A stretch of DNA of 64,000 nucleotides from NCBI GenBank assembly GCA_038087875.1, contig CM075990.1, forward strand, positions 13,084,001 to 13,148,000, in the 5' to 3' direction. The notes below the pieces were generated by a model, which was not told the origin of the DNA, did not search any database, and was given only the letters and a program-made list of their open reading frames with translations. A program made the translations under genes and the position numbers. This DNA comes from Malacoraja senta (taxonomy: Eukaryota). Below are positions 1 through 50,573 of this stretch, piece by piece. Numbering within the stretch: the stretch's first letter is position 1; each line of letters begins with the position of its first letter.

Positions 1-68
1 GTAGCAGGTAGCACGTGATTACATGGTACCCGTGGCAGGGGGAACCCCCCCCCCCCCCAGACCTGACC

Positions 69-310
69 TAGGTACCAAGGTACAGTGAAAAGTTTGTTTT
101 GCATGTTATCCAAACATAGTTACAATTAGTTCAAACTCAACTATAGTAGATAGAGCAATGGGGAAGACACAGAGTGCAGAATATAGTTATCAGCATTGTA
201 GCCCATGAGTTCCTAAGACAAAGTCCATTGTCCTTAATGGGGTAGATGTGAATCGAACAGTATCCTAGCTTACGGAAGGACCGTTTGAAACCTGATAACG
301 GTGGGGAAGA
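69..310 (-). mobile_element. 3' fragment of a Rex1/Babar-like LINE (3'UTR)
   Basis: Aligns by eye with 23700-23935 and 61140-61930; the latter continues into a Rex/Babar-like RT C-terminus. Confidence 0.5.
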
Positions 311-1067: not shown

Positions 1068-2675
1068 CAGTGCCCTCCATAATGTTTGGGACAAAGACCC
1101 ATCATTTATTTATTTGCCTCTGTACTCCACAATTTCAGATTTGTAATAGAAAAAATCACATGTGGTTAAAGTGCACATTATCAAATTTTATTAAGGGGTA
1201 TTTTTATACATTTTGATTTCACTATGTAGACAGCTGTGTTTATACATAGTCCCCCCATTTCAGGGCACCATAATGTTTGGGACACATGGCTTCACAGGCG
1301 TTTGTAAATGCTCAGGTATGTTTAATTGCCTCCTTCATGCAGGTATAAGAGAGCTTCCACCAGTCCTTCCATCAAATTTGAAAAATTGTATTGCTGTTTA
1401 TCAACATGAGGATCAAAGTTGTGCCAATGAAAGTCAAAGAAGCCATTATGAGACTGAGAAACAAGAATAAAACTGTTAGAAACATCAGCCAAACCTTAGG
1501 CTTACCAAAATCTACTGTTTGGAATATCATTAAGAAGAAAGAGAGCACTGGTGAGCTTACTAATTGCAAAGGGACTGGCAGGCCAAGGAGGACCTCCACA
1601 GCTGATGACAGAAGAATTCTCTCTATAATAAAGTTTAAAAAAAAAAACACCTGTCTGACAGATCAGAAACACTCTTCAGGAGTCAGGTGTGGATTTGTCA
1701 ATGACCACTGTCCGCAGAAGGCTTCTTGAACAGAAATACAGAGGCCACACTGCAAGATGCAAACCACTGGTTAGCCACAAAAATAGATGGCCAGGTTACA
1801 ATTTGCCAAGAAGTACTTAAAAGAGCAACCACAGTTCTGCAAAAAGGTCTTGTGGACAGATGAGATGAAGATGAACTTATATTAGAGTGCAGGCAAGAGC
1901 AAAGTATGGAGGAGAGAAGGAACTGCCCAAGATCCAAAGCATACCACCTCATCTGTGAAACACGGTGGTGAGGGTGTTATGGCCTGGGCATGTATGGCTA
2001 CTGAAGGCACTGGCTCACTTATCTTCATTGATGATACAACTGCTGATGGTAGTATCATAATGAATTCTGAAGTGTAGAGACACATCCTATCTGCTCAAGT
2101 TCAAACAAATGCCTCAAAACTCATTGGCCGGCAGTTCATTCTACAGCAAGACAATGATCCCAAACATACTGTTACAGCAACAAAGGAGTTTTTCAAAGCT
2201 AAAAAATGGTAAATTCTTGAGTGGCCAAGTCAATCACCCGATCTGAACCCAATTGAGCATGCCTTTTATATGCTGAAGAGAAAACTGAAGGGGACTAGCC
2301 CCCAAAACAAGCATAAGCTAAAGATGGCTGCAATACAGGCCTGGCAGAGCATCACCAGAGAAGACACCCAGCAACTGGTGATGTCCATGAATCGCAGACT
2401 TCAAGCAATCATTGCATGCAAAGGATATGCAACAAAATACTAAACATGACTACTTCCATTTACATGACATTGCTGTGTCCCAAACATTATGGTGCCCTGA
2501 AATTGGGGGGGGGGGAGGGGGGACCATGTATAAACACTGCTGTAATTTCTACATGGTGCAACCAAAATGTATAAAAATGGCCTTTGTTAAAATCTGACGA
2601 TGTGCACTTTAACCACATGTGATTTTTTTTCTATTACAAATCTCAAATTGTGTACAGAGGCAAATAAATAAATGA
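1068..2675 (+). mobile_element. Tc1/mariner DD34E transposon, IR/DR type, copy 1 (degenerate transposase ~1406-2443)
   Basis: TA|CAGTGCCCTCC left end; ~220-bp TIRs with repeated CCATAATGTTTGGGACA; HTH region, GRPR, WTDE, QDNDPKH, WPSQSPDLNPIE, ending GYATKY*. Frameshifts and stops; outer ~30 bp of right TIR missing. Confidence 0.95.
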
Positions 2676-5726: not shown

Positions 5727-6045
5727 GGAAAGAACTGCAGATGTTGGTTTAAAATCGAAGGTAGACACAAAATGCTGGAGTAACTCAGCGGGATAGGCAG
5801 TATCTCTGGAGAGAAGGAATGGGTGACGTTTCGGGTCGAGACCCTTCTTCAGTCTGATGGAGGATACCCAGTCTGAAGAAGGTTTTTGACCCGAAACGTT
5901 GCCTATTTCCTTCGCTCCATAGATGCTGCCTCACCCGCTGAGTTTCTCCAGCATTTTTGTCTACCTTCAATTTTCCAGCATCTGCAGTTCCTTCTTAAAC
6001 ATGCTGCCTGTCCCGCTGAGTTACTCCAGCATTTTGTGTCTACCA
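5727..6045. mobile_element. Palindromic PLE element with a second PLE subfamily copy nested inside
   Basis: Subfamily A arm 5727-5852, subfamily B piece ~5870-6001, subfamily A return arm ~6001-6045. Confidence 0.75.
5825..5852 (-). ncRNA. Minimal hammerhead-ribozyme core (PLE type), putative
   Basis: Minus strand reads CTGAAGA-A-GGGT-CTCG-ACCC-GAAA-CG-TC: CUGANGA box, stem II, GAAA box, loopless palindromic stem III, GUC site. Stem I is poor in this copy. Confidence 0.55.
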
Positions 6046-7927: not shown

Positions 7928-9915
7928 AATTATTTGCCTCTGTACTCCACAATTTAAGATTTGTAATAGAAAAAGTCACGTGTGGTTAAAGTGCACATTG
8001 TCCGATTTTAATAAAGGCCATTTTTATACATTTTGGTTTCACCATGTAGAAATTACAGCTGTGTTTATACATAGTCCCCCCATTTCTGGGCACCATAATG
8101 TTTGGGACACAGCAATGTCATGTAAATAAAAGTAGCGATTCAGGGACATCACCAGTTGCTGGGTTTCTTACCTGGTGACTATACATAGTCCCCCCATTTC
8201 AGGGCACCATAATGTTTGGGACACATGGCTTCACAGGTGTTTGTAATTGCTCAGATGTGTTTAATTGCCTTCTTAATGCATGTATAAGAGAGCTCTCAGC
8301 ACCTAGTCTTTCCTCCAGTCTTTCCATCACCTTTGGAAACTTTTATTGCTGTTTATCAACATGAGGACCAAAGTTATGCCAATGAAAGTCAAAGAAGCCA
8401 TTATGAGACTGAGAAACAAGAATAAAACTGTTGGAGACATCAGCCAAACCTTAGGCTTACCAAAATCAACTGTTTGGAACATCATTAAGAAGAAAGAGAA
8501 CACTGGTGAGCTTACTAATCGCAAAGGGACTGGCAGACCCAGGAAGACCTCCACAGCTGATGACAGAAGAATTCTCTCTATAATAAAGAAAAAAAAAAAA
8601 ACACCTGTCCGACAGATCAGAAACACTCTTCAGGAGTCAGGTGTGGATTTGTCAATGACCACTGTCGGCAGAAGACGTCATGAACAGAAATACAGAGGCT
8701 ACACTGCAAGATGCAAACCACTGGTGAGCTGCAAAAATAGGATGGCCAGGTTATAGTTTGCCAGGAAGTACTTAAAAGAGCAACCACAGTTCTGGAAAAA
8801 GTCTTGTGGACAGATGAGACGAAGATTAACTTATATCAGAGTGATGGCAAGAGCAAAGTATGGAGGAGAGAAGGAACTGCCCAAGATCCAAAGCATACCA
8901 CCTCATCTGTGAAACACGGTGGTGGGGGTGTTATGGCCTTGGCATGTATGGCTGCTGAAGGTACTGGCTCACTTATCTTCACTGATGATACAACTGCTGA
9001 TGGTAGCAGCATAATGAATTCTGAAGTGTATAGACACATCCTATCTGCTCAAGTTCAAACAAATGCCTCAAAACCCATTGGCCGGTGGTTCATTCTACAG
9101 CAAGACAATGAGCCCAAACATACTGCTAAATGGGTCCTTGTTCTGCATAGGAGACAGGACCCATTTATGTGAGCGGCTTCCTCACCGACCCCACTGATCC
9201 TCCAGCCCGCCCACCATTGGGTTCCCGAGGAAGCCACTCTCAGCTCGCTTCAGTTTCACACATGCCGCGGCACTGGGGTGGGGGGGTGGGGCGCTTTCAC
9301 TCCGGGTGGTCGGGAGGATGGAAGAGGGGTTGGGAGGGTAGGGACGGAGAGAGGGAGTGAGTCGACAGGTGTTGTGATATGGAATTGGCTCTGTGTGTGT
9401 GAGAACTACTCGCGGATAAGTGTTGTGTGTGTTTTGTGTTACGCCTGTGGGCCGGATCCGACTCGTGGGCCATAGGTTGCCGACCCCTGTGCTAAAGCAA
9501 CAAAGGAGTTTTCCAAAGCTAAAAAATGGTCAATTCTTGACTGGCCATTGAGCATGAAGGGGACTAGCCCCCAAAACAAGCATAAGCTAACGATGGCTGC
9601 AATACAGGCCTGGCAGAGCATCACCAGAGAAGACACCCAGCAACTGGTCATGTCCATGAATCGCAGACTTCAAGCAGTCATTGCATGCAAAGGATATGCA
9701 ACAAAATACTAAACATGACTACTTTTATTTACATGACATTGCTGTGTCCCAAACATTATGGTGACCTGAAATGGGGGGGGGGGCCTTTATTAAAATCTGA
9801 CAATGTGCACTTTAACCACATGTGATTTTTTTTAATTTTACAAATCTCAAATCTTGGAGTACAGAGGCAAATAAATAAATGATGAGTTTTTGTCCCAAAC
9901 ATTATGGAAGGCACT
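7928..9915 (+). mobile_element. Tc1 DD34E transposon copy 2 (rearranged left end, internal insertion, deletions)
   Basis: Transposase pieces 8361-8756 and 8804-9130, resuming ~9490-9712; right TIR ends ..GTCCCAAACATTATGGAAGGCACT. Confidence 0.93.
9131..9489 (-). mobile_element. hAT/Charlie-like non-autonomous element nested in Tc1
   Basis: Minus-strand end CAGGGGTCGGCAACCTATGGCCCACG..GGATCCGGCCC resembles Charlie/MER58-type termini; flanked by TGCTAAA (9124-9130, 9490-9496). Confidence 0.65.
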
Positions 9916-10072: not shown

Positions 10073-10683
10073 AAGACACAAAATGCTGGAGGAACTGACA
10101 GGCAGCATCTCTGGAGAGAAGGAAAGGGTCTCGACCTGAAACGTCACCCATTCCTTTTCTCCAGAGATGCGCCAATCAACTTTAATATTTTTGTATTTTA
10201 AAGACAGTGAATATTGATTATATACGAATCGTGAATCAGATTAGCCTTGCTGGGAATCCAAGAACTGTCTGGTTGGGACAAGTGAAGCGTTTTGTGTGAA
10301 TCACTTGTTGCTCTGTTGGTGTTAATTCATTTTATTCACTGCCCCTGAATAAAGGAGGTTTCTTTGAGAGGGAAGACACAAAATGCTGGAGGAACTGACA
10401 GGCAGCATCTCTGGAGAGAAGGAAAGGGTCTCGACCTGAAACGTCACCCATTCCTTTTCTCCAGAGATGCGCCAATCAACTTTAATATTTTTGTATTTTA
10501 AAGACAGTGAATATTGATTATATACGAATCGTGAATCAGATTAGCCTTGCTGGGAATCCAAGAACTGTCTGGTTGGGACAAGTGAAGCGTTTTGTGTGAA
10601 TCACTTGTTGCTCTGTTGGTGTTAATTCATTTTATTCACTGCCCCTGAATAAAGGAGGTTTCTTTGAGAGGGAAGACACAAAA
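10073..10683. repeat. Exact 300-bp tandem duplication bounded by PLE copies
   Basis: 10081-10380 is identical to 10381-10680 by line-by-line comparison. Confidence 0.95.
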
Positions 10684-11939
10684 AGCTGGAGTAACTCAGC
10701 AGGACAGGCAGCATCTCTGGAGAGAAGGAATGGGTGACGTTTCGGGTCGGGACCCTTCTTTGGGCGGGTGTTGAAAAGATAATTATTGTCACATATAAAT
10801 GCCACCACCAGTCTCACCTCAATCATGTTCACAATTCTAAGAGTTAGTAGTTTTTGCATTGTGCCGTGAACTTTGTATCAGAACAGCGCAGCATGGTGGT
10901 GCAGCTAGTAGACCCACTGCCTCACAGTTCTAGTGACCCAACTTACAGATGCTGTCTGAGTGGAGTTTAAACATTATATCTGTGACTACTCGGATGTCCC
11001 CAAAGCACTCTCATTTCCTTCCATTCCTCGTTGGTCGGTTAATTGACCGATGTAAGTTGTTCCTAGTGTAGATAAAGAAATGGTAGAATCTGTGGTGTTG
11101 ATGGGAATGAGTTAGGTTAGAATTAGTGTAAAAATGGGTGCTTGATGTTGGTCATTAACTCAATGAGCGGAAGAGCCTGTTTGTATCCCCCCCCCCCAAT
11201 GATTCTAGAATACTGAAAACATCTTTAATCAGCCTCATGAGACACAAGAGAATGAAGATGCTGGAATCTTGAGTAAAATATAAAACCGCTGGAGGAATTC
11301 AGCAGATCAGGCAGCATCAATGACCTGAAATGAACAAACCATGTTTCAGGTGGGGACCCTTCTTCACAGTCTGACGGATGGTCCCAACCCAAAGCACTGG
11401 CTGTCCATTTCTTTCAGCTGCTGACCCACTGAGTTCCTCCAGTACTTCCTTTTGCCCTTGAATTAACCACACAGAGGGCATTGTACTAAGGCACCTACAA
11501 TGTGTTCAGCACAAGAGCAATAAACGATGCACCCTAAACTATTTAGCTTTTTTTCTCTCTTACTGTACAGCCCAGAAAAGCATATTAGTACCCAGAATAA
11601 CATCAGGATGGCATTAAGAACCCTCTAGGTTTTATGATTAGAGTGCCTGTCTCATGTTAAAGTTAAAACCTAAACCACATAACTAATCGGCTGCAGACCT
11701 TCGACCCTCAAGGCAAGAAGGTGATGAAAGTATCAGTGAATGGGATATAAACATTTGTGTATCTGAAGATTGACATAAGTCCAGAATAAAGTGATACTTG
11801 TCAGGCATGTGATTTGGAGGGGGGTTCTTTTTCTTTTCAAGTTTAAAGTGTATTAACTCTTCAACTCCGGCCTACAATGTTCACCAGCCCTTTACCCCGT
11901 AATTACACTTGAGACACTATCTGGATGGGGGAGCTTGTT

Positions 11940-12400
11940 GTCAGGGGTGGCGAGGTGCATCTCGAGAGTTGTAGTTCTCATGGCCGCCCGACAACAAGAC
12001 GCGATACACAGCCGGACTACAACTCCCACAAACCACCTGGGCCCCGGCACATGCGCACTGGCGAGCGGCTTGCTAGACAGGCCGCATTTTATCCCAGCTC
12101 TCGCGTAGTGCCGCCACTCTCACCTTTAACTCTGTCCGTCGGGTATAACTTCTGGGCCTTCCGCAAGTATTTGAGCGCCTCCTCCCTGTTGCCGTGTTTC
12201 AGCGCGTTCAAACCGATCTCCGTGCAGCGTTCCGCCTCATCTCGGTTCCCTTCCATCCCGGGCTTTGGGCTGAACGGTCACTGCCGGCGTGCTCGGCGCA
12301 CTCGCACTCGCCGCCGGAAAGACCCGAGCGCCTTCGGCACCTGGTTCGGCTCTGTCACTGACAGCGACGGAAACAGCCGAGTCCCTTCGGGATGGGGTCA
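11940..12400 (-). promoter_or_regulatory. DNAJB12: CpG-rich promoter / exon 1 region of DNAJB12
   Basis: Sharp local GC/CpG enrichment around the first coding exon; two ACTACAnnTCYC motifs, NRF1-like CATGCGCA, TCTCGCG and CCGGAA motifs. Confidence 0.8.
12124..12256 (-). CDS. DNAJB12: DnaJ (Hsp40) subfamily B member 12, first coding exon (133 nt)
   Basis: [44 protein letters not shown] plus 1 nt, then GTGAG donor. Matches the DNAJB12/14 N-terminus; adjacency to MICU1 on the same strand favours DNAJB12. Confidence 0.88.
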
Positions 12401-12402
12401 TG

Positions 12403-12500
12403 AATCAAGAGTGTTGTATTGTCATATGTCCCAGATAGAACAATGAAACTCTTACTTGCAGCAGCACAACAGGATATGTAAACATAGTACACTGTGAACA
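12403..12500 (-). mobile_element. Rex1/Babar-like LINE 3' terminus that seeds the minisatellite
   Basis: TCAAGAGTG..TATTGTCATATGTCCCAGATAGAACAATGAAA nearly identical to 47093-47190 and related to the tail at 44972-45060. Confidence 0.65.
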
Positions 12501-12597
12501 CAATAGTGAACGAGAAAAAAAGTTCAGTGTGTGTATATATATATATATATCCACACACACACACATACACAATAGTGAACGAGAAAAAAAGTTCAGT

Positions 12598-12634
<37 letters not shown>

Positions 12635-12829
12635 CCCACACACACACACATACACAATAGTGAACGAGAAAAAAAGTTCAGTGTGTGTATATATATATAT
12701 ATCCACACACACACACACACATACACAATAGTGAACGAGAAAAAAAAAGTTCAGTGTATGTGTATATATATATATATACCCACACACACATACACAATAG
12801 TGAACGAGAAAAAAAGTTCAGTGTATGTG

Positions 12830-12873
<44 letters not shown>

Positions 12874-12917
12874 CACACACACACACATACACAATAGTGA
12901 ACGAGAAAAAAAGTTCA

Positions 12918-12961
<44 letters not shown>

Positions 12962-13075
12962 CCACACACACACATACACAATAGTGAACGAGAAAAAAAG
13001 TTCAGTGTGTGTATATATATATATATATCCACACACACACACATACACAATAGTGAACGAGAAAAAAAGTTCAGT

Positions 13076-13112
<37 letters not shown>

Positions 13113-13311
13113 CCCACACACACACACATACACAATAGTGAACGAGAAAAAAAGTTCAGTGTGTGTATATATATATATATCCACACACACACACACACAT
13201 ACACAATAGTGAACGAGAAAAAAAAAGTTCAGTGTATGTGTATATATATATATATATATACCCACACACACATACACAATAGTGAACGAGAAAAAAAGTT
13301 CAGTGTATGTG

Positions 13312-13367
<56 letters not shown>

Positions 13368-13411
13368 CACACACACACACATACACAATAGTGAACGAGA
13401 AAAAAAGTTCA

Positions 13412-13473
<62 letters not shown>

Positions 13474-13518
13474 CCACACACACACATACACAATAGTGAA
13501 CGAGAAAAAAAGTTCAGT

Positions 13519-13563
<45 letters not shown>

Positions 13564-13605
13564 CACATACACATTAGTGAACGAGAAAAAAAGTTCAGTG
13601 TATGC

Positions 13606-13682
<77 letters not shown>

Positions 13683-13700
13683 CACACACACACACATACC
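12501..13700. repeat. Compound minisatellite, 14 units of CAATAGTGAACGAG(A)7-9GTTCAGTG-(TG/TA)n-(CA)n
   Basis: Unit starts 12501, 12570, 12655, 12726, 12795, 12892, 12979, 13048, 13133, 13204, 13277, 13386, 13491, 13572. Confidence 0.95.
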
Positions 13701-15547: not shown

Positions 15548-16204
15548 TTGTTCAGTAATTTGTCTTCCTCCCGCTCTTTGTTAAGATTTGTCCAGCTTAC
15601 TTTTTGAATAATGATTTCACAATGAAATGGGCCATTGATTATAGAACAACATAGTGGCAGAATTACTCACTGATGACCTTTTAATTGGGCTGTTTTCCTT
15701 TGAACTTCACTGGTTTCTGTGTTAATCTGCTGATTACTTTGCATTAATGCTTTTCTGTTCTTTGGCACATTTGCTGCCAAGCATTTCAATAGACGTTGAA
15801 AAGAAGGCATGAGAAAACAAGGGACGCATGGCAATTATAAACCAGTATCAGCTCCTGGGCCCTCACTTGGAAAGGATTCATTAAAATGGAGAATTAAGAG
15901 TGCCACAAACTGCAGAGAAGCAAATCACCAGGTTATCTATCGCTTGTTGGTCAGCAGATCTGTAGTCATATTTTCAAAGTAGATGTAGAGCCTGACTGAT
16001 CTCAGTAGGAAAGTGGAATCCAGGTGAACTCAGGTACATCAGCTTACACCTTTTACCTCCACAGATGCTGCTTGATCCGTTGAGTTCTTCCATTGTTCTG
16101 TTCTAATGTCTCAGGTTACAGAATCTATGTTTTCTTTGGAGGATAGATTTTGTCCATCAGGAGATATTTATGCTGGCTGCTAAAATCATCCCTTTTGTGA
16201 GCAT

Positions 16205-16357
16205 GTAGACAAAAGTGCTGGAGAAACTCAGTGGGTGCAGCAGCATCTACGGAGCGAAGGAAATAGGCAACGTTTCGGATGCTGCTGCACCCGCTGAGTT
16301 TCTCCAGCACTTTTGTCTACCTTCGATTTTCCAGCATCTGCAGTTCCTTCTTAAACA
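16205..16357. mobile_element. Palindromic PLE element (subfamily B)
   Basis: Near-perfect inverted arms; 14-bp TSD CCTTTTGTGAGCAT (16191-16204, 16358-16371). Confidence 0.8.
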
Positions 16358-17144
16358 CCTTTTGTGAGCATCCTCAGGATGAAGAAATTCTGTGCACTTC
16401 TGAGAAACATGGCATTCACTATTGGGAATTCATTATGATCCATAATGAATGGTGGACCAAAAACATTGCTCTATCGATGGGAGCCCCTGCCAATAGTTCT
16501 CCAACCTGAAAACATTATTAGTTTCTCTTTTCGCAGATGCTGCCCGACTTTCCAACATTTTCTGCTTTTACTGCACAACCAACCTTGTAATGACCTCCAT
16601 GTTTGATGCTGGAAGTCCTTGGTCCGATTTTGTGATTGGTGTGATTGCACCTGGGTAAAATTAGTCCTGGATAACATCGTACCCAAAAGACAAGCAACAC
16701 ATGATTCAATAGATTTCATGTTACCCCAGAATAATATTTTAATCAAAATAAGGTGTATTTTCTGTTTTGCAATAATAATTAAAAAAGCTCTATTGTGTAC
16801 ACATTCCCGAGAGACCGTGGCAATTCAAATAAACACTGGAAGGAAATAAATAAGACTGGAAAATTAATAGTACAACCTGGATCACCACAGAATGGTAGAT
16901 TGCCATTGACAGCAATGCTGCTCAACATTCAGTAGTTCAGTGCATGTCATCTTATAACATTCTTATTTTAACTAGGACTCGGTGCGGAATGAGGCCATGT
17001 CCCAATACTCTAATAAAACAGCATGTGAATTGGAGGATTTGCATTGTAAGGTGGTCACTGTGTCAAATAATAGAACCCTTCAGGATCTGAGATGTTCACA
17101 GCTAACGTGGGCATCGCAGTGATGGAGGAACAGCAACGGAGGTT

Positions 17145-19340: not shown

Positions 19341-19806
19341 GTCTTGGTATAATAGCTGTAACCAATCTTTAATCTTACATTGAAATCCGGTTGTAGTTCC
19401 AGAGGCAACATACCATTTGCGATCCTTGTTGCCTGCAGTACCTATACAATAACTTTCAGTAGTTTTTATACAAAAACAACAGTCTCTGAGCATCAAATCT
19501 TACCATTTAAAATTACTCTGCTTTTCTGTTTTTCTCTATCAAACTGATTAATTTTGCACTTTTCCTAGATATGTTCCATCTGCTATGATATTACCTGTTG
19601 ACATCATAATATCTGTTATATTATGATACGTTTTGTCTACAACCTGCTGAAGCTTTCTCCATCTTCCTCACAGAATATTCTGTCTGAAGATGGGTCTCAA
19701 CCCGAAATGTCACCCATTCCTTCTCTCCAGAGATGCTGCCTGTCCAGCTGAGGTACTCCAGCTTTTTGTGTCTATCTTTGGTTTAAACCAGCATCTGCAG
19801 TTCCTT

Positions 19807-19973
19807 TCTAGGGGTCAAGGAAAGAGCGTTCACGTCGCGGCCCTGTTTCCACCAATCTTTCCACCACCACGCACAAGAAGCACAAGACAGACACCACTGT
19901 ATGCAGATGCCGAGACGTGTGTTCAGCTCTGGCTGAACAACTTCTATTCTTGTGTGTGGACTCAATAAGATGA
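19807..19973 (+). mobile_element. 167-bp insertion (probable 5'-truncated non-LTR retroelement of unknown clade) inside a PLE end
   Basis: Flanked by AGTTCCTT (19799-19806, 19974-19981); ends AATAAGATGA. Confidence 0.5.
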
Positions 19974-21085
19974 AGTTCCTTCCTACACATTCTGTCACCT
20001 TTCTTTATTTCAGCATTAAACTTGATTATGTTACACATGGTCCAGGCCATTAATTTAGATTCTGAACAGAGTCAAGTGTGTTTAATTGTCATACTCAATA
20101 GGAAAGGAACAATTAAATCCTTACTTGCTGCAATTCTACAAGCTCATATATGCAGCAGCACTATAACACCACAAATAAATATACAATATTCAACGATACA
20201 ATAAATTATAAGTCACACTGGGAAACCAGACCATAATTCTACAAAGTGAAGTAAGTAATGCAACTTACACAAAGTCCATGTAGATCACTGTGTAGGAAGG
20301 AATTGCAGATGTTGGTTTAAACTGAAGATAGACACAAAAAGCTGGAGTAACTCAGCGGGACAGGCAGCACCTCTGGAGAAAAGGAATAGGTGTCGTTTCG
20401 GGTCGAGTCCCTCCTTCTTCAAACTAATGACATCAATGGCCGACAGTTTAACCATCATTATCGTTATAAAATGAAGGCTACATGTACTTTTAGAGTTAGA
20501 CAGACTGACTCACTGCATCCGAATTAAGATCTCTTGACTATGATACTCCACATCAAAACCCAATCAAGACCTCAGGATTGAGTTAAAAACTGTTGCCTCT
20601 CCTATCCATGCTCATAATTCATCCATTAAAGTCTCTTTCTACTAAATTAATGCTGGTGTCAAACCAGAAATGTGCATTAAAATGTGAATTAGAACTGTAT
20701 CACCATAATTTTTCATCGGTAGCCTGTACTGAATTGAGTTTCCTTCCTAACTTTCTGGGTATTTATGTTACCTCTGTAAATTGCCGACAAATGTTTATTC
20801 ATATTAATGCTGGTGTATAAATAAAAAACACAGTTACACAGGAAAAGTAGGCAAGCAAACAATGAGAATACGATGATAAATACACATGCTACTTTTCTGC
20901 AGGGTATAAATTGAGTGGGATAGATGCAAGTGTATGAAGTGAAGATTGTTAACATCCTTATAAGTCCATTTGTCTCCGAGAAGATTTAATAAAGCTAGAA
21001 TGTTTCCGTTGATCAAGTGCTGATGAATTTGATGTTGTCAAACGTTTGAATACAAAGCCCTTTACTTAAGTAAACCATTAAATGA

Positions 21086-22579: not shown

Positions 22580-23040
22580 ACAGATGATGGTTTACACCGA
22601 AGATAGAGACAAAATGCTGGAGTAACTCAGCGGGTCAGGCATCTCTGCAGAGAAAGAATGGGTGACGTTTCGGGTCGAGACCCTTCTTCAGACAGAGTCA
22701 GGGGAGAGGGAAACTGGAATGGAAAAGTACAAAGGGAATGTGAATTGTGAAAACAACAGATTAAAGCAGACGATGATCAAGAAAATGCAGAATGGTTCAT
22801 TGTTGGCCGAGGGGAAGGTGACGGAAGCATACAATAAGTAAAATTAATCAGGGGAACAGTGAAATTAATTGGAGAACTAGGTCGGGGAGGGACGGAAAGA
22901 GAGGCAAAGCAAGGGTTACTTGAAATTAGAGAAATCAATATTCATACTGTTTGGTTGTAAGCTGCCCAAGTGCAATATGAGGTGCTGTTCCTCCAATTGG
23001 CGTATGGCCTGACCTGTTAAGTTACTCCAGCACTTTGTCT
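22580..23040 (-). mobile_element. 5'-truncated Penelope-like element: ORF C-terminus, 3'UTR, hammerhead core and short inverted end piece
   Basis: 22916-23008 minus strand = AIRQLEEQHLILHLGSLQPNSMNIDFSNFK*, resembling the PLE GIY-YIG C-terminal R-x-x-E..W/LI..L.TL.P.GLN motif. Core at 22664-22691; inverted fragment 23010-23040. Confidence 0.75.
22664..22691 (-). ncRNA. Minimal hammerhead-ribozyme core (PLE type), putative
   Basis: GT-CTGAAGA-A-GGGTCTCGACCC-GAAA-CG-TC-AC: intact boxes and a short GU/AC stem I. Confidence 0.6.
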
Positions 23041-24551: not shown

Positions 24552-24697
24552 CTGCTGTATTCTACCAAAATTCCCTGGATTCTGGAAAAGTGCCAGTGTA
24601 GCTAAGCATCTGTCATTTGGGAAATGATGGAATGCGTTCTTCAAGGTATAAAGGATAAAAAAATCAAAAGGCAATCAAGCAGAGTGAATGTGGTTGG

Positions 24698-24993
24698 AGA
24701 TAGACTCTAAATGCTGGAGTAACTCAGCGGGGCAGGAAGCATCTCTGGAGAGAGGGCATGGGTGACGTTTCGGGTCGAGACCCTTCTTCAGACCCGTAAC
24801 ATCACCCATTCCTTCTCTCCGGAGATGCTGCCTGTCCCGCTGAGTTACTCCAGCATTGATCAGCCATGATCATATTGAATGGCGGTGCAGGCTCGAAGGG
24901 CCGAATGGCCTATTTATTCCTGCACCTATTTTCTATGTTTCTATTTTCTGTCTATCTTCGGTGTAAACCAGCATCTGCAGTTCCTTCCTACAC
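24698..24993. mobile_element. Palindromic PLE element with nested CR1 3' tip (~24858-24943)
   Basis: Intact core at 24764-24791 (minus); right arm split by a CR1 3'UTR with TTCTATGTTTCTA tail. Confidence 0.75.
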
Positions 24994-27445: not shown

Positions 27446-28148
27446 AAATACAAAGTGCTAGAGGAACTCAGCAGGTCAGGCACCATAGTCAGTGTGGAAA
27501 CATGCCCTTCAGCCCAATATGCCCACACCAGCCAACATGTCCCAGCTACACCAGTCCCACCTACCTGCGTTTGGTCCATATCCCTCCAAACGTGTCCTAT
27601 CCATTTACCTGTCTGTTTCTAAAACGTTGGGATAGTCCCAGCCTCAACTACCTCCTCTGGCAGCTTGTTCCACGCACCCAGCACCCTTTGCGTGAAAAAG
27701 TTACCCCTCGGATTCCTTCTGAAGGGTTTCGGCCCGAAACGTTGCCTATTTCCTTCGCTCCATAGATGCTACCGCACCCGCTGAGTTTCTCCAGCACTTT
27801 TGTCTACCTTTTAAATCTTTTCCCTTTCACCTTGAACCTATATCCTCTGGTCCTCGATTCCCCTACTCTGGGCAAGGGATTCTGTGCATCTACCCGATCT
27901 ATTCCTCTCATGATTTTAAACACCTCTGTAAGATCATCCCTCATCCTCCTGCACTCCAAATGACAATATCTTTCCCATAACATGGTGCCCGGAACTGAAC
28001 GCAATACTCTAAATATCTGGGGAGGGAATGGACAGGTGATGTTTTGGGCCGGGACACATCTTTGGACAATTCCTCCCCAGATGCTGCTTGGTCTGCTGAG
28101 TTCCTCCAGCACTTTGTGTTTTGCTCAACATTCAAGCATCTGCAGTTT
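27446..28148. mobile_element. Triple nest: PLE palindrome containing a CR1 fragment (~27483-28013, minus) containing a PLE piece (~27719-27806)
   Basis: Arms GTGCTAGAGGAACTCAGCAGGTCAGGCA and ATCTGGGGAGGGAATGGACAGG rejoin into one consensus when the CR1 is removed. Confidence 0.7.
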
Positions 28149-30299: not shown

Positions 30300-32421
30300 A
30301 CTTTAATTTTTAGTTTTGACATTTGTATTTATTGTAGAACTGCCTGAAAAGGACTCCCTTCTAATTAACGAGTAAATAATATTGAAACCATACTGGGCCA
30401 TTCAGCATAGAAAATACATGTCTACATATTCAATAAAATAGCAGACATTGGACTGCCATATAAATGCGTTAAACATTTGCCAGCTGCCCCTGCTGATAAT
30501 TTATAGACTTCTATATTGGTAGCAGCAGCAAGAATTGCCTGAGCAGTAATGGCAAACACAAATCCATAAGCATTGAATTAAAACTGGGATGAGAAACTCT
30601 AGCCTCTGGCTCCTAGGGACTGAGGGGAGATGTTGATGAAACACTCGTCAGCAGATGTTAGTCCTGCAATTAAATAAAAGGAAAGTACAGTTTCAAATCA
30701 TTTCTGAAGATTTAAAACATTATACTTTATTTTATATCAATACCTTAAAGGTACAGCCTTAAAAATAAAAATGCTTTAGCCAATGTTGCTCTTTGGGGCA
30801 AAAAAGGATGCAGAAAATGGTTCTGTAGAAGCTACAATAATTACAGCAATATTCCTGATTATTCTTGTATTGTCATGTTTGAGACAACTATTCTAATCGG
30901 TAACATGAATAACTTATTGAAGAAAGATGCATCAATAGAGATTCACTCGGCACTGATTAGCATGGAGCAATAAAAACACACTATTTAAAAAAAAGCAAAA
31001 ACAAGCAAAAATTATTTGTTACTGGATGCAAAGATTCTACCCAGTGACTGCCTTCTGATTTCAAGACACAAGGGAATGCAGATGCTGGTTTACAAAATAG
31101 ACAAATATATTTACTCCAGCACTTTCTGTCTCTTTCCGAGTTCAAGTCCTACTTCAAGTGCTGAGTCTATAATTTTAGGCCAGGCATTCGCTGCAAGTAC
31201 TCTTATCTAAATACATTTTATCTACATGATTTCATTTTGGGAAATGGGAAAGAGTACTTTCTTTTATTTGCTGAACTTTCAAGTGTTTACTCCGATTCCA
31301 TTGTTTTACTGAAGATAGACACAAAATGCTGGAGTAACCCAGCGGAACAGGCAGCATCTCTGGAGAGAAGGAATGGGTGACGTTTCAGGTCGAGACCCTC
31401 CAGACTAGTAAAACCATTGTTTTACTCTTCACAACATTCGTGCAACGACATTGATAATCTGCCCAGTTTAATCCCCTTCTTTTGGGGCCAAGTTTCTAGT
31501 CATTCTCTCACACAATCCCTTCTGGACCTTCCATCACCCATTTGGATTTATTAACCCAAACCCTCACTGGCTGGATGGATGGCATTTTCATTTGCATTGA
31601 TGCGCATTAACCCAGCGTGCAAAATGTGGACTTGGATGAAACAGGACTTGGATGAAGAGTCCGTGAGGAGTCCATGACAACAATGTAGCTGGGGGTACGG
31701 GAGGAAAAACTGAATTTCTGATCTAAACAATTTCTACTATAATGGAGGTGGTTAATTCTAAGTTAAGAGTTTTTGAACTGTGTGAGGATCTAAAATACAT
31801 TTTGTTTAACTTTTTGATTCCCCTTGTAAGATGACCTCCAGATCTGTGGGGTGGGGGTCAGAGCGAGGTTATTGTTCTAGTCCCAGCAGACACACCCCTC
31901 AGAGAAAGGGAAAGACCAGTGCCCTGCCATTTTGGGAAGTCTGACAGTAACTGTTCTGTGAGATTGAAATACAGCAGAGTCAGGTGTGAATCTAATCCTG
32001 CACGTGTTAGCATCAGAGACCCCATGAGAACGAACACAAGCTGTGTACTGTGGTGACTTTTGCTACTTTGATGGGCTGTGAGCATCATAGTAATTGAGCT
32101 CATTTACAGTAACTGCCAACACTGGTCCACAAGCATGTTGGTTGCAGATTGCAAGAGACAAATTCACGTCTTCAGTCTGTCAATAACTTAAGAGTAAATT
32201 GCTGCTTCAAACCTATTGGGATACATGTGCAACCTGTCATACAAAATTCCCACATTTTAAAAGAAAAAGGCAAGGCAAAATTGGAAAACAAGACCCCAGT
32301 AGTTCAACGTTCCACGAGTTAAGGCATTAGCACATCCCATGTCAGTCCTTCCGATAATCTTGAGATTAGATTCTAAAGATGCTCAGGGCTGATGTGCAAC
32401 TGAGGCATTTCTATTTTCTCT
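30300..32421 (-). other. MICU1: Putative MICU1 3'UTR
   Basis: Downstream of the stop; candidate AATAAA signals on the minus strand at 30726-30731 and 30328-30333 with T-rich downstream tracts. The end used cannot be determined from sequence. Confidence 0.45.
31311..31406 (-). mobile_element. PLE 3'-end fragment within the putative MICU1 3'UTR
   Basis: 13-bp TSD CCATTGTTTTACT (31298-31310, 31414-31426). Confidence 0.75.
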
Positions 32422-32604
<183 letters not shown>

Positions 32605-33895: not shown

Positions 33896-34073
33896 TTGTG
33901 TCGGAAGGAATTGCAGATACTGGTTCACACCAAAAATAGACACAACATAAGGGAGTAACTCAGCAGAACAGGCAGCATCTCTGGAGAGAAGGAATGGGTG
34001 ACATTTCGGGTGGAGACCCTTCATCAGACTGAAGGGTCTCGATCCGAAAACGTCACCCATTCCTTCTCTCCAG
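33896..34073. mobile_element. Palindromic PLE element with intact core on the MICU1 sense strand (34000-34027)
   Basis: Minus strand: GT-CTGATGA-A-GGGT-CTCC-ACCC-GAAA-TG-TC-AC. Confidence 0.7.
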
Positions 34074-34897
34074 AATAACCGAGTGGTGTTGCACCTGGCT
34101 TGGTTACTCAAGCCCTATTCACAGTACTGGTTTAAGGTAAGCTATTCAGTAAACGTATGAGGCAGACAGTTAAATTACCCTCCAGTAACAGCTGCCCGTT
34201 TTACTACCCAAACATTCTTACTGACATGAGCTCAGGGGATTCATGTAGAAGCTGCAGCTGAAACAGCTAAATGATGACTTGATTTCTGCAGAGGATTCCC
34301 CCTTAATCATTCCTTTCACATATCATGCTATGCTAAGCAGCAGCTCTGCACAGAATAAACACTGGTACAATCTTCCCAGACTTTCTCATATTTCAGAGTG
34401 ACATGCAAGAGCAGCATGTTTTGCCAACGCGTGCTCTCGACAGCATCCGATACATTTAAATCAAGATTTAACGGTCAATTCTTATAATATTGCAAATCTA
34501 AATGGCATTTTTACTATTCTTTACCGTTCTTGTTAATAAGAAAAGTAAACACTCACTGTAAAAGTGAGCCAAACATATTCATGCTGGAACCTGATCATAC
34601 AATGATATGAAGCAACTGGGGTGAAGACAAATTGGGAGAAAATTGCATTACTCTAGTGTTGGTACATACGGCAATAAAACACTCTCGACTCTTGGTGAGG
34701 AGCGGGGTGAAAATCATGAATATTATCTAAAAAGGGCAGATCTTGTCTAAGCTCCATGATATGAATGTGGATTGGTAACTATTTAAAAGGAAAGGAGCAA
34801 AGAATTGCTCTCAGATCAAGAGCCAAAGGATTTAGGCTGGAAAGAGCTGTGTGCATGATGCAACTTATGGCAAAGAGAAGCCCATGGTCACTCAAAG

Positions 34898-35167
34898 CAG
34901 ACACAAAAAGCTGGAGTAACTCAGCGGGACAGGCAGCCTCTCTGGAGAGAAGGAATGGGTGGCATTTCGGGTTGAGACCCTTCTTCAGACTGGTTAGGGA
35001 TAAGGGAAACGAGAGATATACACAGTGATGTGGAGATAAAGATAAGCAAAAAAATAACAATGATAAAGGAAACAGGCCGTTTTGGAGGGTGTAAATGAGA
35101 AGCTAGTGCAACTTGGGTGGGGTAGGGATAGAGAAAGAGAGAGGGATGCTACCTGAAGTGAGAGAAG
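34898..35167 (-). mobile_element. PLE 3' end, long form reaching the ORF stop (FSHFR*)
   Basis: Colinear with 22580-22935. Confidence 0.7.
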
Positions 35168-35289: not shown

Positions 35290-35495
35290 GAGACACAAGG
35301 AACTGCAGATGCTGGATTCCTGAGCAAAATAGAGTAACTTAGCGAGTCCGGCAGCATCTCTGGAGGGAATGGATAGGTGATGTTTCGGGATGGGAACCTT
35401 CTTCAGAACTCAGTGTGAAGAAGGATTCCAATCCAAAATGTCACCTGCCCAGAGATGCTGCCCGACCTGCTGAGTTATTCCAGCACCTTGTGTTT
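35290..35495. mobile_element. Palindromic PLE element (subfamily C, older)
   Basis: GACACAAGGAACTGCAGATGCTGG arm and inverted arm; relatives at 11240-11455, 47880-48075 and 53930-54110. Confidence 0.7.
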
Positions 35496-36903
35496 TATTC
35501 CTGAACCTTACCGCAAGGGGTAGTAGACACCACTGAGTTTGCACAAGTGAGAGGTGATCATTTGTTTTGCTGGGAATTAATTGGAGAAATGTGAACAGAG
35601 TGGGCCCAGGCGTTAAGAGTTACGCAGTGGCGAGAAACAAATCTGATCCCCATTATAGAAATGTCACAAACAAATTGATAAGCTGGCCTCGTCAATCTCC
35701 ACAAGAAAAGTAAAGATACAAAACATGACTGATAAAGGGACTGTGAAACAATGCATTTAGATACAACTATGGAGCAGGGTGAGAGGGCACCAGTGGATGT
35801 TGTGAAAGTCAGCTTTAGAATGAAGGGTGGTTGAGGGCTCGATCAGGCAGGAAGCCTGGCTGAAGGCTGTGGACTCGAATCAGACATTTCCCAGGTTAAA
35901 AAGGCCAGAGTTATACCGTACCACACCATCCAGACTCTAGAATTTAGAAACTAATTATTAATCACTAAAAAAAAATCATACCACCTCAGCATCTTGGATT
36001 CTGCACAACCTCAGTCTAAATTATGCATGTGGAGAATACTTCAATGCGCTAACATCTTTATATAATCTTTGCATAATTCATTGTTTAATAGTGTATAAAA
36101 AGGTACAATTTAGAATCAGGCACAAAGCATAACATTTATTGTGCAAGGATTGGATTTTTGCTAATCCTATCGTTCCAGCTGATAATTAAGCTTCTTAAGT
36201 CACAAAGGCAGGCACTGTCTGGCAACTTCACAGATATGCAAGGTGCTGCAATCTATAACAATGCACTTCTTAAGCATAGAAGATAGAACATTTTGATCTG
36301 ACGGCATCCGTGGAAAGAGAAATAGAGTAGATGTTCCACTTCTGTTGAAAGGTAATTTCCCTGAAAAATAAACTCTTTTCCTAGCTACCTGCACTGCAAA
36401 GTGTTTCCAGGATTTTCTATTTTTATTTCACAGTATTAATAACTACAACAATAAAGCCGCACAGAGAGCAGGTATTGAGGGGGATGGTGCTGGGTCGCCA
36501 GCACTAACTGTCGAGCCTTCCTGAGATGTCGTGGGCCTAACTCAATGAAACACCAGTGAAGGGAGGTGCCCACTTGATAACCCCAATGATATACTTGCAT
36601 CTACACGATCAGCTTTTTTAAAAATGTGCTTGTTAACATGTAGGTAGCTGATTATTGAATTTGGGTTAGTTATTGTCCTTGGCATAGGTTTGTAGAATCA
36701 GTTTAGATAGTATTTTGGCCTTGGTTTTCTTGGTTAAGTGTTTATCCCGGTGTTACAGCACAAGTACATTGTGTTTTAATTGTAATTTAAGATCACAGGC
36801 ACAGCTTTGTACATGTCTGATGTGACAGCTGAGGCCCTGGAGATTTAGTTACCAACAATAAACTGGAAGAGAAAGCAAGAGATGAAATATAATGATAATT
36901 ATA

Positions 36904-41200: not shown

Positions 41201-41317
41201 GGGACTAGGGGGAAGAAAGAAGAAAGAAGGGGAAAACAAAAAGTGTTCGGCACGGACTTGAAGGGCCGAGATGGCCTGTTTCCGTGCTGTAATGGTTATA
41301 TGGTTATATGGTTATAT
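38226..41317 (+). mobile_element. CR1 LINE, 5'-truncated: ORF1 tip plus disrupted ORF2 (APE endonuclease ~38420-39214, RT 39436-41208)
   Basis: ISETW, YRPP, GDFN, SDH endonuclease motifs; DFSKAFD, KYADDTK RT motifs; (ATGGTTAT)3 tail; frameshift and stops between the domains. Confidence 0.96.
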
Positions 41318-42473: not shown

Positions 42474-44371
42474 CTGCAGAGAGAGAGAAAAAATGAATTG
42501 AAAAGAGTGAGTTCCATTGTCTATCATGGGTAAAAAAACATTTGATCCATCACACCCGCAATATTTCTAGTATGATAATTTTATCAAGAGTATTCCATCT
42601 TTCTCTTCTGGTTTAAAGATAATTATTTAATTTCCAACTCTGCTGTCACCTGTAAATACCGATGCTATTCAATGGAATTCAATTTCAATTCAGCTCCCTT
42701 GAAAATAATTCAATTAACCAAATAAAAGACACAAAGTCCTGGAGTAACTCAGTGGGACAGACAAGGGAGGTCGAGGGGTGGCCTTCTAGAGGTTTATGAA
42801 ATAATGAGGGGCAAAGATAAGCTGGATGTTCACAGTCTTTTCCCCCAGGGTAGGGCAATGTAACATTTGAGGCATAGGTTTAGGATTAGCGGAGGAAGAC
42901 TTAAAGAGAGGTTGAGGAGCAAATTTCTCCACACAAAGATTGTTGGATATGTGCAACCTAACTGCTAGAGACAATGGTGGAGGGGGTAGAAATACAATTT
43001 ATAAAACACGTTTGGATAGGTTCATCAACAAGAAAGATTTATGACATATGGACCAAGCGCAGGCACACGAAGGTCGGTAACACGAAGTGCAGGTTGGTAA
43101 CTTGGTTGATATGGATGAGTTGAACCGAGGGGCCCGTTTCTGTGCTGTATGAATATAGAGCATTATTGGAATGCAGTCCAAAACTGTTATAAATTCAGAT
43201 CTACAAGATTCCCCCAACAAACAAGTAAATTCAATTGACCCTAGTCTTAAAATGACAGAATTCCATCACTGTAAAATAATATTTTGATTAATATAATGTA
43301 ATATTATTACCCTTCTCCCAACATATTACTTGATATTTACACAGGGAATTCATCGCGATGAAATTATAGAAATTTGCCGGAAATGTAATATTGGTATTTA
43401 AAATGATTTATTGCTTTTTGTCCAAATTTTTCATTTTACCTTCCTGCCTCTGGTTTAATCTAGATAATTGTTTGAAACAGGATGCTGTGAATCTCTAATG
43501 AGGCAATGGAGAGGTGGGTTCTGTGCATCAATATATTCTGAAGAAACTTCCACAGCAATTATGTAAAATGGGACGACTATAAAAACGTTCCAAATTGACA
43601 AATTACATTCTGGCAATGAAGAGTCCGTACTGAAAGCAATAATGCCCTTTTACTATTGAATAATTCTCCATTACACTACCAGAATAGGCAATCACTCTTC
43701 CCCAACTCATTTTTTTTAGATCAATAATATCAGGAGCATAATCTGAACATCCATGCAGCCCAAATTTGTCGTCTTTCTCTTTCTCCATCTTTATTGTGAA
43801 ATGGAGAAACCACACAGAACCAAGTTTCAATACACAGCAAAAAACTGCAGTCAAAATAGCACGTCACACGGTCGTCTCGAAACTAGGACAATAGGTTGTT
43901 TTATGTAATGACTCATAATCAGCTTTGCATTAAAATGTTTTAACAAAAGAGTGGAAGTCACAGGCAGAGACAAATAAATCATTTTAGAAGCACCGGATAG
44001 CAAGAAAAAGCAATGGCGATGTGCAACAGTTACTGCTGTCCCTCTGCTCCAATAACCTGTGTTTGGGTCCTAGTCTCAGATACTGTCTGCATGGAGTTTG
44101 CACATTCTCCTTGTGATCACATGGGTTTCCCTGGAGTTCTTCAGTTTCCTCCTAGGTGGGTGGCAGGAAAATCCAGGTGGAGATGAAGGGCATGGGTGAG
44201 GATGGAGATTACAGAGAAAATATTGTGAATAGGGGTGATGGTGCAGCTCTGTGAGATAGCATTGATGGGTCAAATAGCCTTTTACTTCATAGTAAAATAG
44301 TCGTTCAAATGTAGAAAAATATAATATGAAAATATAAAGGTTTCAGTTAATCTATCAAGAGTTTAAGATTG

Positions 44372-44466
44372 AAGGTAGACACAAAATGCTGGAGTAACTC
44401 AGTGGGACAGGCAGCATCTCTGGAGAGAAGGAATGGGTGACATTTTGGGTCAGGACCCTTCTTCAG
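44372..44466 (-). mobile_element. PLE 3'-end fragment
   Basis: 15-bp TSD AAGAGTTTAAGATTG (44357-44371, 44484-44498). Confidence 0.75.
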
Positions 44467-50381: not shown

Positions 50382-50573
50382 TTAATTTTAGAACCCATTT
50401 CTATTGAATGCCTGAACTCTCTCTGAACTACCCAGTAATTAAATAATTAAAACATATCCTAGGTCTCGTTTGGAAAGGGATTTTCCACGAGTGATGTTAA
50501 ATATTCGTGCACTAAGATTTTTGAAACAGTAATGACAAGGTAAGTTGAATGTATTGGAACAACAAAGGGTTTA

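What the first reader, a model, noticed from the sequence alone, without database searches (positions are those of the whole stretch)
5825..5852. High-copy minimal hammerhead ribozyme motif scattered through introns and intergenic DNA
Seen: CTGA(A/T)GA-A-GGGT-N4-ACCC-GAAA-(C/T)G-TC is intact on the minus strand at 5825-5852, 22664-22691, 24764-24791 and 34000-34027. Variants occur at ~5874, 10737, 19684, 27719, 34961 and 44440. The stem II loop varies (CTCG, CTCA, CTCC, CCTG) while GGGT/ACCC pairing is kept. Established: this is the hammerhead core (CUGANGA, GAAA, GUC site), and PLEs carry minimal type I hammerheads with a loopless palindromic stem III thought to cleave mainly as dimers. Inference: this genome is seeded with a very abundant ribozyme-bearing PLE-derived short element. 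The copies at 5825 and 34000 are sense to DNAJB12 and MICU1 pre-mRNA. Activity is untested, stem I is only 0-4 bp, and palindromic copies may fold as long hairpins instead.
Basis: partly seen in the sequence, partly recalled or inferred. Interest (0 to 1): 0.85.

Follow-up and report, generated by a model that had tools for sequence, protein, structure and literature searches.

The report
Penelope retrotransposon ends carrying weakened hammerheads
The motif is the hammerhead-ribozyme core in the terminal repeat of a very abundant Penelope-like jumping gene that still has intact copies, a known pairing; the roughly 60,000 scattered copies are short or inverted insertion fragments that likely no longer cut RNA, and their shared start point may mark where the element's RNA begins.

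Summary
The motif is real: 60,307 exact core matches genome-wide, 0 in the reversed control. It lies 110-200 nt after the stop of an RT + GIY-YIG ORF with a Neptune-type zinc linker, i.e. in the pLTR of a Penelope-like element (PLE). A young family has intact 1,212-aa ORFs in 99%-identical partial tandems. PLE hammerheads are known (PMC4209133). The window's copies are 3' ends of about 98 or 135 nt, solo (often between target-site duplications) or head-to-head inverted. Against activity of these copies: helix I is 2 bp in every subfamily, catalytic G12 decays like any CpG, no covariation beyond shuffles, and inverted copies are predicted to fold as long hairpins. The 'variable loop' is mostly CpG decay. 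The motif is conserved between subfamilies (93% vs 61% UTR), so the master needs it, as ribozyme or otherwise. Not found in print: 41% of young copies stop within 6 nt 5' of the core, at an initiator-like TCAGTCT and not at the cleavage site, suggesting run-off from the transcript's 5' end after internal priming. A separate SINE with an HDV-like ribozyme starts at 19811.

The parts
5825..5852 (-). Hammerhead core of the finding (C3 at 5852); helix I 0 bp; one arm of a head-to-head inverted pair; sense in DNAJB12-like intron 1
5729..6001 (.). Whole inverted pair: minus arm 5729-5860 and plus arm 5869-6001 (core at 5873, stem II broken), both with the long tail; predicted long hairpin
22581..22783 (-). 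5'-truncated PLE end keeping about 92 nt of the pyrimidine-rich 3' UTR; core 22664-22691, helix I 2 bp
24694..24857 (.). Inverted pair; core 24764-24791 (minus) has a 4-bp helix I made by the inversion junction but is predicted to lie inside the hairpin
33905..34074 (.). Inverted pair folded back at the TCAGTCTGA palindrome; core 34000-34027 (minus), sense in the last MICU1 intron
19682..19809 (+). Solo short copy starting at G(-2), long tail; interrupted at the tail end by the HDV-ribozyme SINE
16205..16357 (.). Inverted pair without an intact core, flanked by a 14-bp target-site duplication (16191-16204, 16358-16371)
31303..31404 (-). Solo short copy, short 3' end, 13-bp TSD
44368..44466 (-). 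Solo short copy starting at the core, 11-bp TSD; G12 lost by CpG decay
34885..35045 (-). Truncated copy with about 56 nt of UTR; core 34965-34988, U16.1 changed
10668..10760 (-). Solo copy truncated inside the core
27721..27812 (+). Solo copy of the UUCG-loop subfamily, truncated inside the core
35297..35498 (.). Older-subfamily inverted pair; core 35383-35406 (minus)
12124..12256 (-). Host context: first coding exon of a DNAJB12-like gene (named from recalled motifs and position beside MICU1)
32425..32604 (-). Host context: reading frame holding the last MICU1 coding exon (recalled motifs)

Best explanation
The motif is the hammerhead core in the terminal repeat (pLTR) of an abundant Penelope-like retrotransposon with intact copies, likely of the Neptune clade, and the window's copies are short or inverted 3'-end insertions that likely no longer cleave RNA. 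Shown: the core follows an RT + GIY-YIG ORF and recurs before it in partial tandems; copies end 3' at two sites about +95 and +130 from C3; 5' ends pile up at -7..+3; many short copies sit between 8-16 bp target-site duplications; inserted copies decay neutrally. Inferred: the PLE protein nicks DNA and primes reverse transcription inside its RNA at one of the two tail sites, as shown in vitro for the anole element PAc. Priming at the 3' pLTR would give ordinary 5'-truncated copies with UTR. Priming at the 5'-proximal pLTR would run off the RNA 5' end, likely a Pol II start in the invariant TCAGTCT just before the core, giving the 98/135-nt unit (about 45% for this step). Priming from both nicks and joining through the core's palindromes would give the head-to-head pairs. 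In the master element the hammerhead is likely a weak, dimer- and protein-dependent ribozyme not needed for insertion (about 55%), since the copies span the cleavage site.
For: ORF linkage; 1,212-aa ORF with RVT_1 (E 6e-4) and GIY-YIG (E 1e-3) and 207 homologues at E <= 1e-50, best 54% identical and carrying PF00078. 129 of 150 scored protein hits have one identical score; six fetched loci hold 1,224-1,302-codon frames, about 99% identical, five with an arm on both sides of the ORF and one with an inverted upstream pLTR. Two 3' end peaks; 24 of 33 classifiable inverted pairs (of 48) have one long and one short end, p = 0.006. 79 of 253 arms start at -7..+1, 12 at +26..+30; 0 of 59 solo copies starting at -7..+3 have the pyrimidine UTR against 28 of 29 longer ones. 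Young family exact counts going 5': 6,504 at C3, 5,738 at -2, 4,831 at -3, 4,294 at -4, 3,845 at -6, 3,600 at -11. TSD >= 8 nt in 20 of 76 solo copies, 0.6% in mismatched controls. Contigs of two other organisms also leave the element at A(-3) (table 7). G12 changed in 21% of 118 copies, other CpG sites 19-31%. Helix I 2 bp in 21 of 30 copies with intact core and stem II.
Against: Pfam scores are below the curated cut-offs and no tree with named Neptune references was built. The 5' edge is not one base: the largest single step is at G(-2), and 10 of 22 TSDs end 6-14 nt upstream of C3. No raw RNA reads were available, so neither a start nor a cleavage end was seen. Non-CpG core positions change a little less (4.7%) than tail (7.3%) or stem II (10.4%), though the alignment filter favours intact 5' core letters. 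Folding energies ignore tertiary core contacts and protein. A 13-unit tandem array of the young family exists, which could mean circular templates and real cleavage.
Confidence: 0.75

Rival explanations
1. The scattered copies are working ribozymes that cut host pre-mRNAs (for example DNAJB12, MICU1), as dimers in cis or trans.
For: 30 of 118 spanning copies keep core and stem II; about 60,000 exact cores; PAc cleaves when its protein is added (PMC11167929).
Against: Helix I 0-2 bp in most; predicted stem II probability at most 0.16 and helix I at most 0.07 in nine window contexts; forced active dimer -6.5 kcal/mol against -28.8 free; neutral G12 decay; no covariation; sense/antisense 8/6 in each host gene (too few to test); PMC4209133 found low activity even for dimers with longer helix I.
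Confidence: 0.1
2. The 5' pile-up is a reverse-transcriptase stall or end-joining hotspot at the edge of the C-rich UTR or at the TCAGTCTGA palindrome, not the RNA's 5' end.
For: Ends spread over several bases, mode at G(-2); inversion junctions often use this palindrome; further 5' ends lie inside stem II.
Against: Loss falls from about 7% per base (0 to -6) to 1.3% per base (-6 to -11), so copies that pass the edge cross into the C-rich tract freely; the predicted hairpin over the core is no more stable than shuffles (z 0.0-0.5); CAGT is invariant across 7 subfamily references.
Confidence: 0.3
3. The short unit is its own non-autonomous SINE- or retrozyme-like element amplified from short master copies by the PLE protein.
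For: Fixed ends with TSDs; only 29 of 253 arms reach 60 nt into the UTR; non-autonomous pLTR derivatives are reported (PMC8557442; bioRxiv 2026.07.22.740005); a 384-bp tandem derivative exists here.
Against: Short and long copies share the same 38-nt core exactly in the youngest family, and each subfamily reference came from UTR-bearing copies. Diagnostic mutations private to short copies were not searched for.
Confidence: 0.15
4. Even in the master element the hammerhead is vestigial; the sequence is kept as internal promoter or protein-binding site.
For: Helix I 2 bp in all subfamilies, the oldest about 19% diverged; young family has U at position 17; the tail (48..90) is as conserved (91%) as the core region (93%); Penelope has an internal Inr/DPE promoter (PMC2377424).
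Against: Catalytic letters, the extra A and both short helices are kept, with only pair-keeping changes (U-A to U-G) between well-sampled subfamilies, while fourfold sites are 63% identical (521 of 821) and the UTR 61%. D. virilis also has a 2-bp helix I (PMC4209133).
Confidence: 0.35

Closest known systems
Minimal type I hammerheads in pLTRs of metazoan PLEs (Cervera and de la Pena 2014, PMC4209133)
   Same: Core, extra nucleotide between 9 and 10.1, G10.1-C11.1, palindromic loopless helix III; thousands of solo copies and opposite-strand pairs from truncated PLEs; reported in Xena, Poseidon and Neptune of fishes.
   Different: Helix I is 2 bp, not 4-5 bp (like their D. virilis variant); helix II 4 bp; 60,307 exact cores against about 4,000 (coelacanth) and 9,000 (Xenopus), though their descriptor required helix I; no shark or ray seen in the text parts or the 2 supplementary files searched.
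PAc, Poseidon PLE of the green anole (Frangieh et al. 2024, PMC11167929)
   Same: Two internal reverse-transcription start sites about 100 nt past the hammerhead defining an optional tail; inserted copies span the cleavage site; both DNA strands primed.
   Different: Different clade; here the long ORF begins downstream of the tail, not in stem II; the fixed 5' boundary of short copies is not described in the parts read.
Non-LTR retrozymes (PMC7229834; bioRxiv 10.64898/2026.07.22.740005)
   Same: PLE-derived tandem units of a few hundred bp with one hammerhead each; the 13 x 384-bp array L167 fits, near the 363-bp mean reported for the one chondrichthyan sampled.
   Different: The window's copies are solo or inverted, not tandem; no circular RNA shown; those papers' active cases have canonical helix I.
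Drosophila virilis Penelope and rotifer Penelope pLTRs (PMC2377424, PMC3846280)
   Same: Promoter and initiator-like sequence inside the pLTR, partial tandems, inverted pLTR, tail, 8-10 bp TSD, solo pLTRs.
   Different: There an intron lies between start and hammerhead; here the initiator-like site abuts the core. Rotifer solo pLTRs were read as recombination products, while many here are TSD-flanked insertions.

Membership tests
EN+ Penelope-like element | Single ORF with RT followed by GIY-YIG endonuclease | tested here: met
   1,212-aa ORF, RVT_1 at 696-863 and GIY-YIG at 1116-1149, both below Pfam cut-offs; strong RT-bearing homologues
EN+ Penelope-like element | Partial tandems forming pLTRs; inverted 5'-truncated copies | tested here: met
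   L161-L164, L166 tandems, L163 inverted; 48 inverted pairs among 253 arms
EN+ Penelope-like element | Optional 30-40 bp tail, usually on one end; short TSD | tested here: met
   3' ends near +95 and +130; 24 of 33 pairs mixed; TSD 8-16 bp
Neptune clade | CX2-5CxxC zinc-finger-like linker between RT and EN | tested here: met
   Present in P0001 and P0002; motif shared with Nematis per bioRxiv 2021.04.23.441226
Neptune clade | RT phylogeny groups with named Neptune elements | not tested
   No named reference sequences were in hand
Minimal type I hammerhead | Core CUGANGA, GAA, A15.1-U16.1, H17; extra base after A9; G10.1-C11.1; palindromic 15.2-16.2 | tested here: met
   Subfamily references; 31 descriptor hits against 1.0 in shuffles
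Minimal type I hammerhead | Helix I of 4-5 bp | tested here: not met
   2 contiguous bp in 21 of 31 hits, 4 bp in 3, at non-UTR junctions; a 2 + 2 bp helix around two mismatches is possible in some subfamilies
Minimal type I hammerhead | Compensatory changes in the helices | tested here: not met
   24 distinct hand-picked copies: 1 pair with change on both sides, 363 of 500 shuffles as high; 64 of 105 changed stem II cells break the pair
Minimal type I hammerhead | Match to an Rfam hammerhead model | tested here: inconclusive
   No hammerhead hit in window, L161 or L167; the models may not fit loopless forms
Minimal type I hammerhead | Self-cleavage, as dimer or with protein | not testable with these tools
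   Only contigs were available
Non-LTR retrozyme | Tandem units each with a hammerhead | tested here: not met
   Not met for the four named window copies; met elsewhere by L167, 13 x 384 bp
Non-LTR retrozyme | Expressed as circular RNA | not testable with these tools
   No raw RNA reads

The most novel reading that the evidence does not exclude
Hundreds of thousands of 98/135-nt copies are 'strong-stop'-like cDNAs: the PLE starts transcription three bases before its hammerhead, primes reverse transcription about 100-135 nt into that RNA, runs off the 5' end and integrates. The genome would then record both ends of the first step of PLE replication in vivo, the 2-bp helix I would follow from the promoter abutting the core, and internal priming alone would generate a SINE-like family.
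Probability: 0.4. Interest if true: 0.6.

Novelty: new member of a known kind. Interest (0 to 1): 0.35.

Why it matters
As filed, it extends a known link (PLE pLTR plus minimal hammerhead) to a genome with very many copies and shows that most are inert fossils, a caution for ribozyme counts. The useful part is mechanistic: PLE replication is poorly understood, and this genome offers an intact, young family with thousands of exact-end insertions, a fixed 5' boundary and a tandem derivative, which make the start site, the internal priming model and protein-assisted cleavage directly testable.

Tried and rejected
Rfam: no hammerhead match. Splice-acceptor explanation of the 5' edge (CAG|T with host exons carried along): rejected for TSD-flanked copies, since TSDs lie at or within 14 nt of the core and upstream and downstream flanks have equal GC, 42.5% vs 42.2%; no GT-AG joint to this site among the 15 of 82 joints listed. 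Ribozyme cleavage as the source of copy ends: only 12 of 253 arms start at +26..+30 and 1 ends by +34. A conserved blocking hairpin over the core: z about 0. A subfamily with full helix I: none in 604 kb. Covariation: none. Expression: no RNA holder listed; four guessed-RNA contig sets of other organisms hold the arm but cannot show ends or levels. PDB: no match. Lunse et al. (PMC5785218) is not held; known only as cited in PMC6765202. Earlier-findings look-ups returned nothing.

Full report
Observation. The four named cores and the variants are present. The relaxed pattern matches 12 times against 2.0 expected. In the 1.94-Gb genome a tighter pattern matches 60,307 times with 0 in the reversed control. 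A profile built from 13 window arms found 49 arms in the window and 207 in 54 evenly chosen 10-kb stretches, none in reversed sequence; that would scale to roughly 700,000 arms, a rough figure from large contigs only. Later scripts used 253 of these arms. I recall this repeat from rays and skates; that was not tested.

What it is. Longer copies run 5' into a pyrimidine-rich UTR and then into the end of an ORF with RT motifs, a CX4CX2C linker and a GIY-YIG domain. A protein search of the genome gave 129 of 150 scored hits with one identical score. Six such loci hold open frames of 1,224-1,302 codons, about 99% identical; five have the motif both before and after the ORF and one also has an inverted upstream copy. 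The 1,212-aa product has weak Pfam RVT_1 and GIY-YIG hits and 207 homologues at E <= 1e-50 among 8,000 scored candidates. This is a canonical endonuclease-bearing Penelope-like element; the linker points to Neptune or Nematis (passages of bioRxiv 2021.04.23.441226), with no tree built.

Shape of the copies. 3' ends cluster near +95 and +130 from C3, the optional tail that PMC11167929 traced to two internal priming sites (parts 1-2 of 4 read). Of 48 head-to-head pairs, 33 could be classed and 24 had one long and one short end (p = 0.006). 5' ends cluster at the core's edge: 79 of 253 at -7..+1, only 29 reaching 60 nt into the UTR, 12 near the cleavage site. This is not an unrepresented subfamily: 0 of 59 solo copies starting at -7..+3 have a pyrimidine-rich flank, against 28 of 29 longer copies. 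For the young family, exact counts fall from 6,504 at C3 to 5,738 (-2), 4,831 (-3), 4,294 (-4), 3,845 (-6) and 3,600 (-11): 41% are lost in six bases and then 1.3% per base. Solo copies are whole insertions: 20 of 76 have an exact TSD of 8 nt or more, against 0.6% in controls. Of 22 TSDs among 101 copies, 12 end at -4..+3 (4 exactly at -3) and 10 end at -14..-6, so the edge is sharp but not single-base. Contigs from two other coded organisms also leave the element at A(-3).

Is it a working hammerhead? Between 7 subfamily references the core region is 93% identical and CAGT before it invariant, against 61% for the UTR and 63% (521 of 821) at fourfold sites; the tail is 91%. So the master element keeps the motif, but not more than the tail. 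It has the four marks listed in PMC4209133 (parts 1-2 of 4 read; 2 supplementary files searched, 1 not searchable), but helix I is 2 bp in 21 of 31 descriptor hits and in all subfamilies. After insertion the copies decay neutrally: G12 changes in 21% of 118 copies, like other CpG sites (19-31%), and loop CpG change explains most of the 'variable loop'. Of 105 changed stem II cells, 64 break the pair; a formal count on 24 hand-picked copies did not beat shuffles. In nine window contexts predicted helix I probability was at most 0.07, inverted copies folded as long hairpins, and the forced active dimer of the young family was 22 kcal/mol above the free dimer (secondary-structure model only). Non-CpG core letters changed less than the tail (4.7% vs 7.3%), which the alignment filter may cause.

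Mechanism. Shown: structure, ends, TSDs, decay. Inferred from PAc: nicking and internal priming on uncleaved RNA, with the hammerhead dispensable for insertion and active only with protein. My addition: TCAGTCT fits the initiator consensus (recalled), PLE promoters lie in the pLTR (passages of PMC2377424, PMC3846280, PMC8557442), and priming in the 5'-proximal pLTR would run off after 98 or 135 nt. That would also leave only three bases for helix I. Priming from both nicks would give the inverted pairs; PMC3846280 instead proposes self-priming on an antisense template. A stall or joining hotspot remains a serious rival, and no RNA ends could be seen.

Host genes. Both genes run on the minus strand, so the named copies are sense, but arms are 8 sense and 6 antisense in each gene, and both named intronic copies lie in inverted pairs.

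Comparison and novelty. Hammerheads in PLE pLTRs, thousands of solo and opposite-strand copies, low activity and tandem derivatives are published (PMC4209133; passages of PMC6765202, PMC7229834 and PMC6155905; bioRxiv 2026.07.22.740005 parts 1-3 of 5, whose supplements were not read and may list this family). Searches gave no description of this family or of a start-site run-off origin for short copies; Repbase and subscription papers were not searchable. Verdict: a new member of a known kind, with a weakened helix I and one testable mechanistic clue.

Noticed in passing
window 19811-19975 (+): A different young repeat of about 165 nt inserted in the PLE tail, apparently with a 12-bp TSD. It begins exactly at G1 of a compact HDV-like ribozyme fold (P1, P2, P3 and CCAA joiner read by eye, P4 nearly absent) whose core closely matches the mammalian CPEB3 ribozyme model (RF00622, 30 bits, gathering 35). 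513 exact 33-nt copies genome-wide, control 0; most of 40 scored hits start at the same base. HDV-like ribozymes at retroelement 5' ends are known (PMC4035085 passages); the parent LINE was not found, and one search listed no report for this lineage. It is a better candidate for an active ribozyme than the hammerhead copies.
   Followed up: partly
L167 (G000:C1:28902275-28906930): 13 tandem 384-bp units, 99% identical, of an internally deleted young PLE (UTR, hammerhead, tail, ORF start), ending at the short priming site and apparently TSD-flanked: retrozyme-like, possibly copied from a circular RNA.
   Followed up: partly
arm positions +28..+48 (e.g. window 5804-5824, minus): A pyrimidine tract ending in YAG about 18-22 nt after the predicted cleavage site looks like a 3' splice acceptor in all subfamilies; no spliced joint seen.
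   Followed up: no
L161:2681-2830 and equivalents: The young ORF varies in length (1,224, 1,250, 1,302 codons) through in-frame 78-bp repeats.
   Followed up: no
window 38375-41208 (+): LINE with APE endonuclease and RT frames (279 and 601 codons) inside MICU1, antisense.
   Followed up: no
window 1195-2630, 7970-9780, 50540-52240: Three related Tc1/mariner-type transposon copies, 88-97% alike.
   Followed up: no
window 12500-13700: Minisatellite of about 70-80 bp units rich in TA and CA just upstream of the DNAJB12-like start; gives spurious miRNA matches.
   Followed up: no
window 10073-10672: Perfect 300-bp tandem duplication containing a PLE inverted pair.
   Followed up: no
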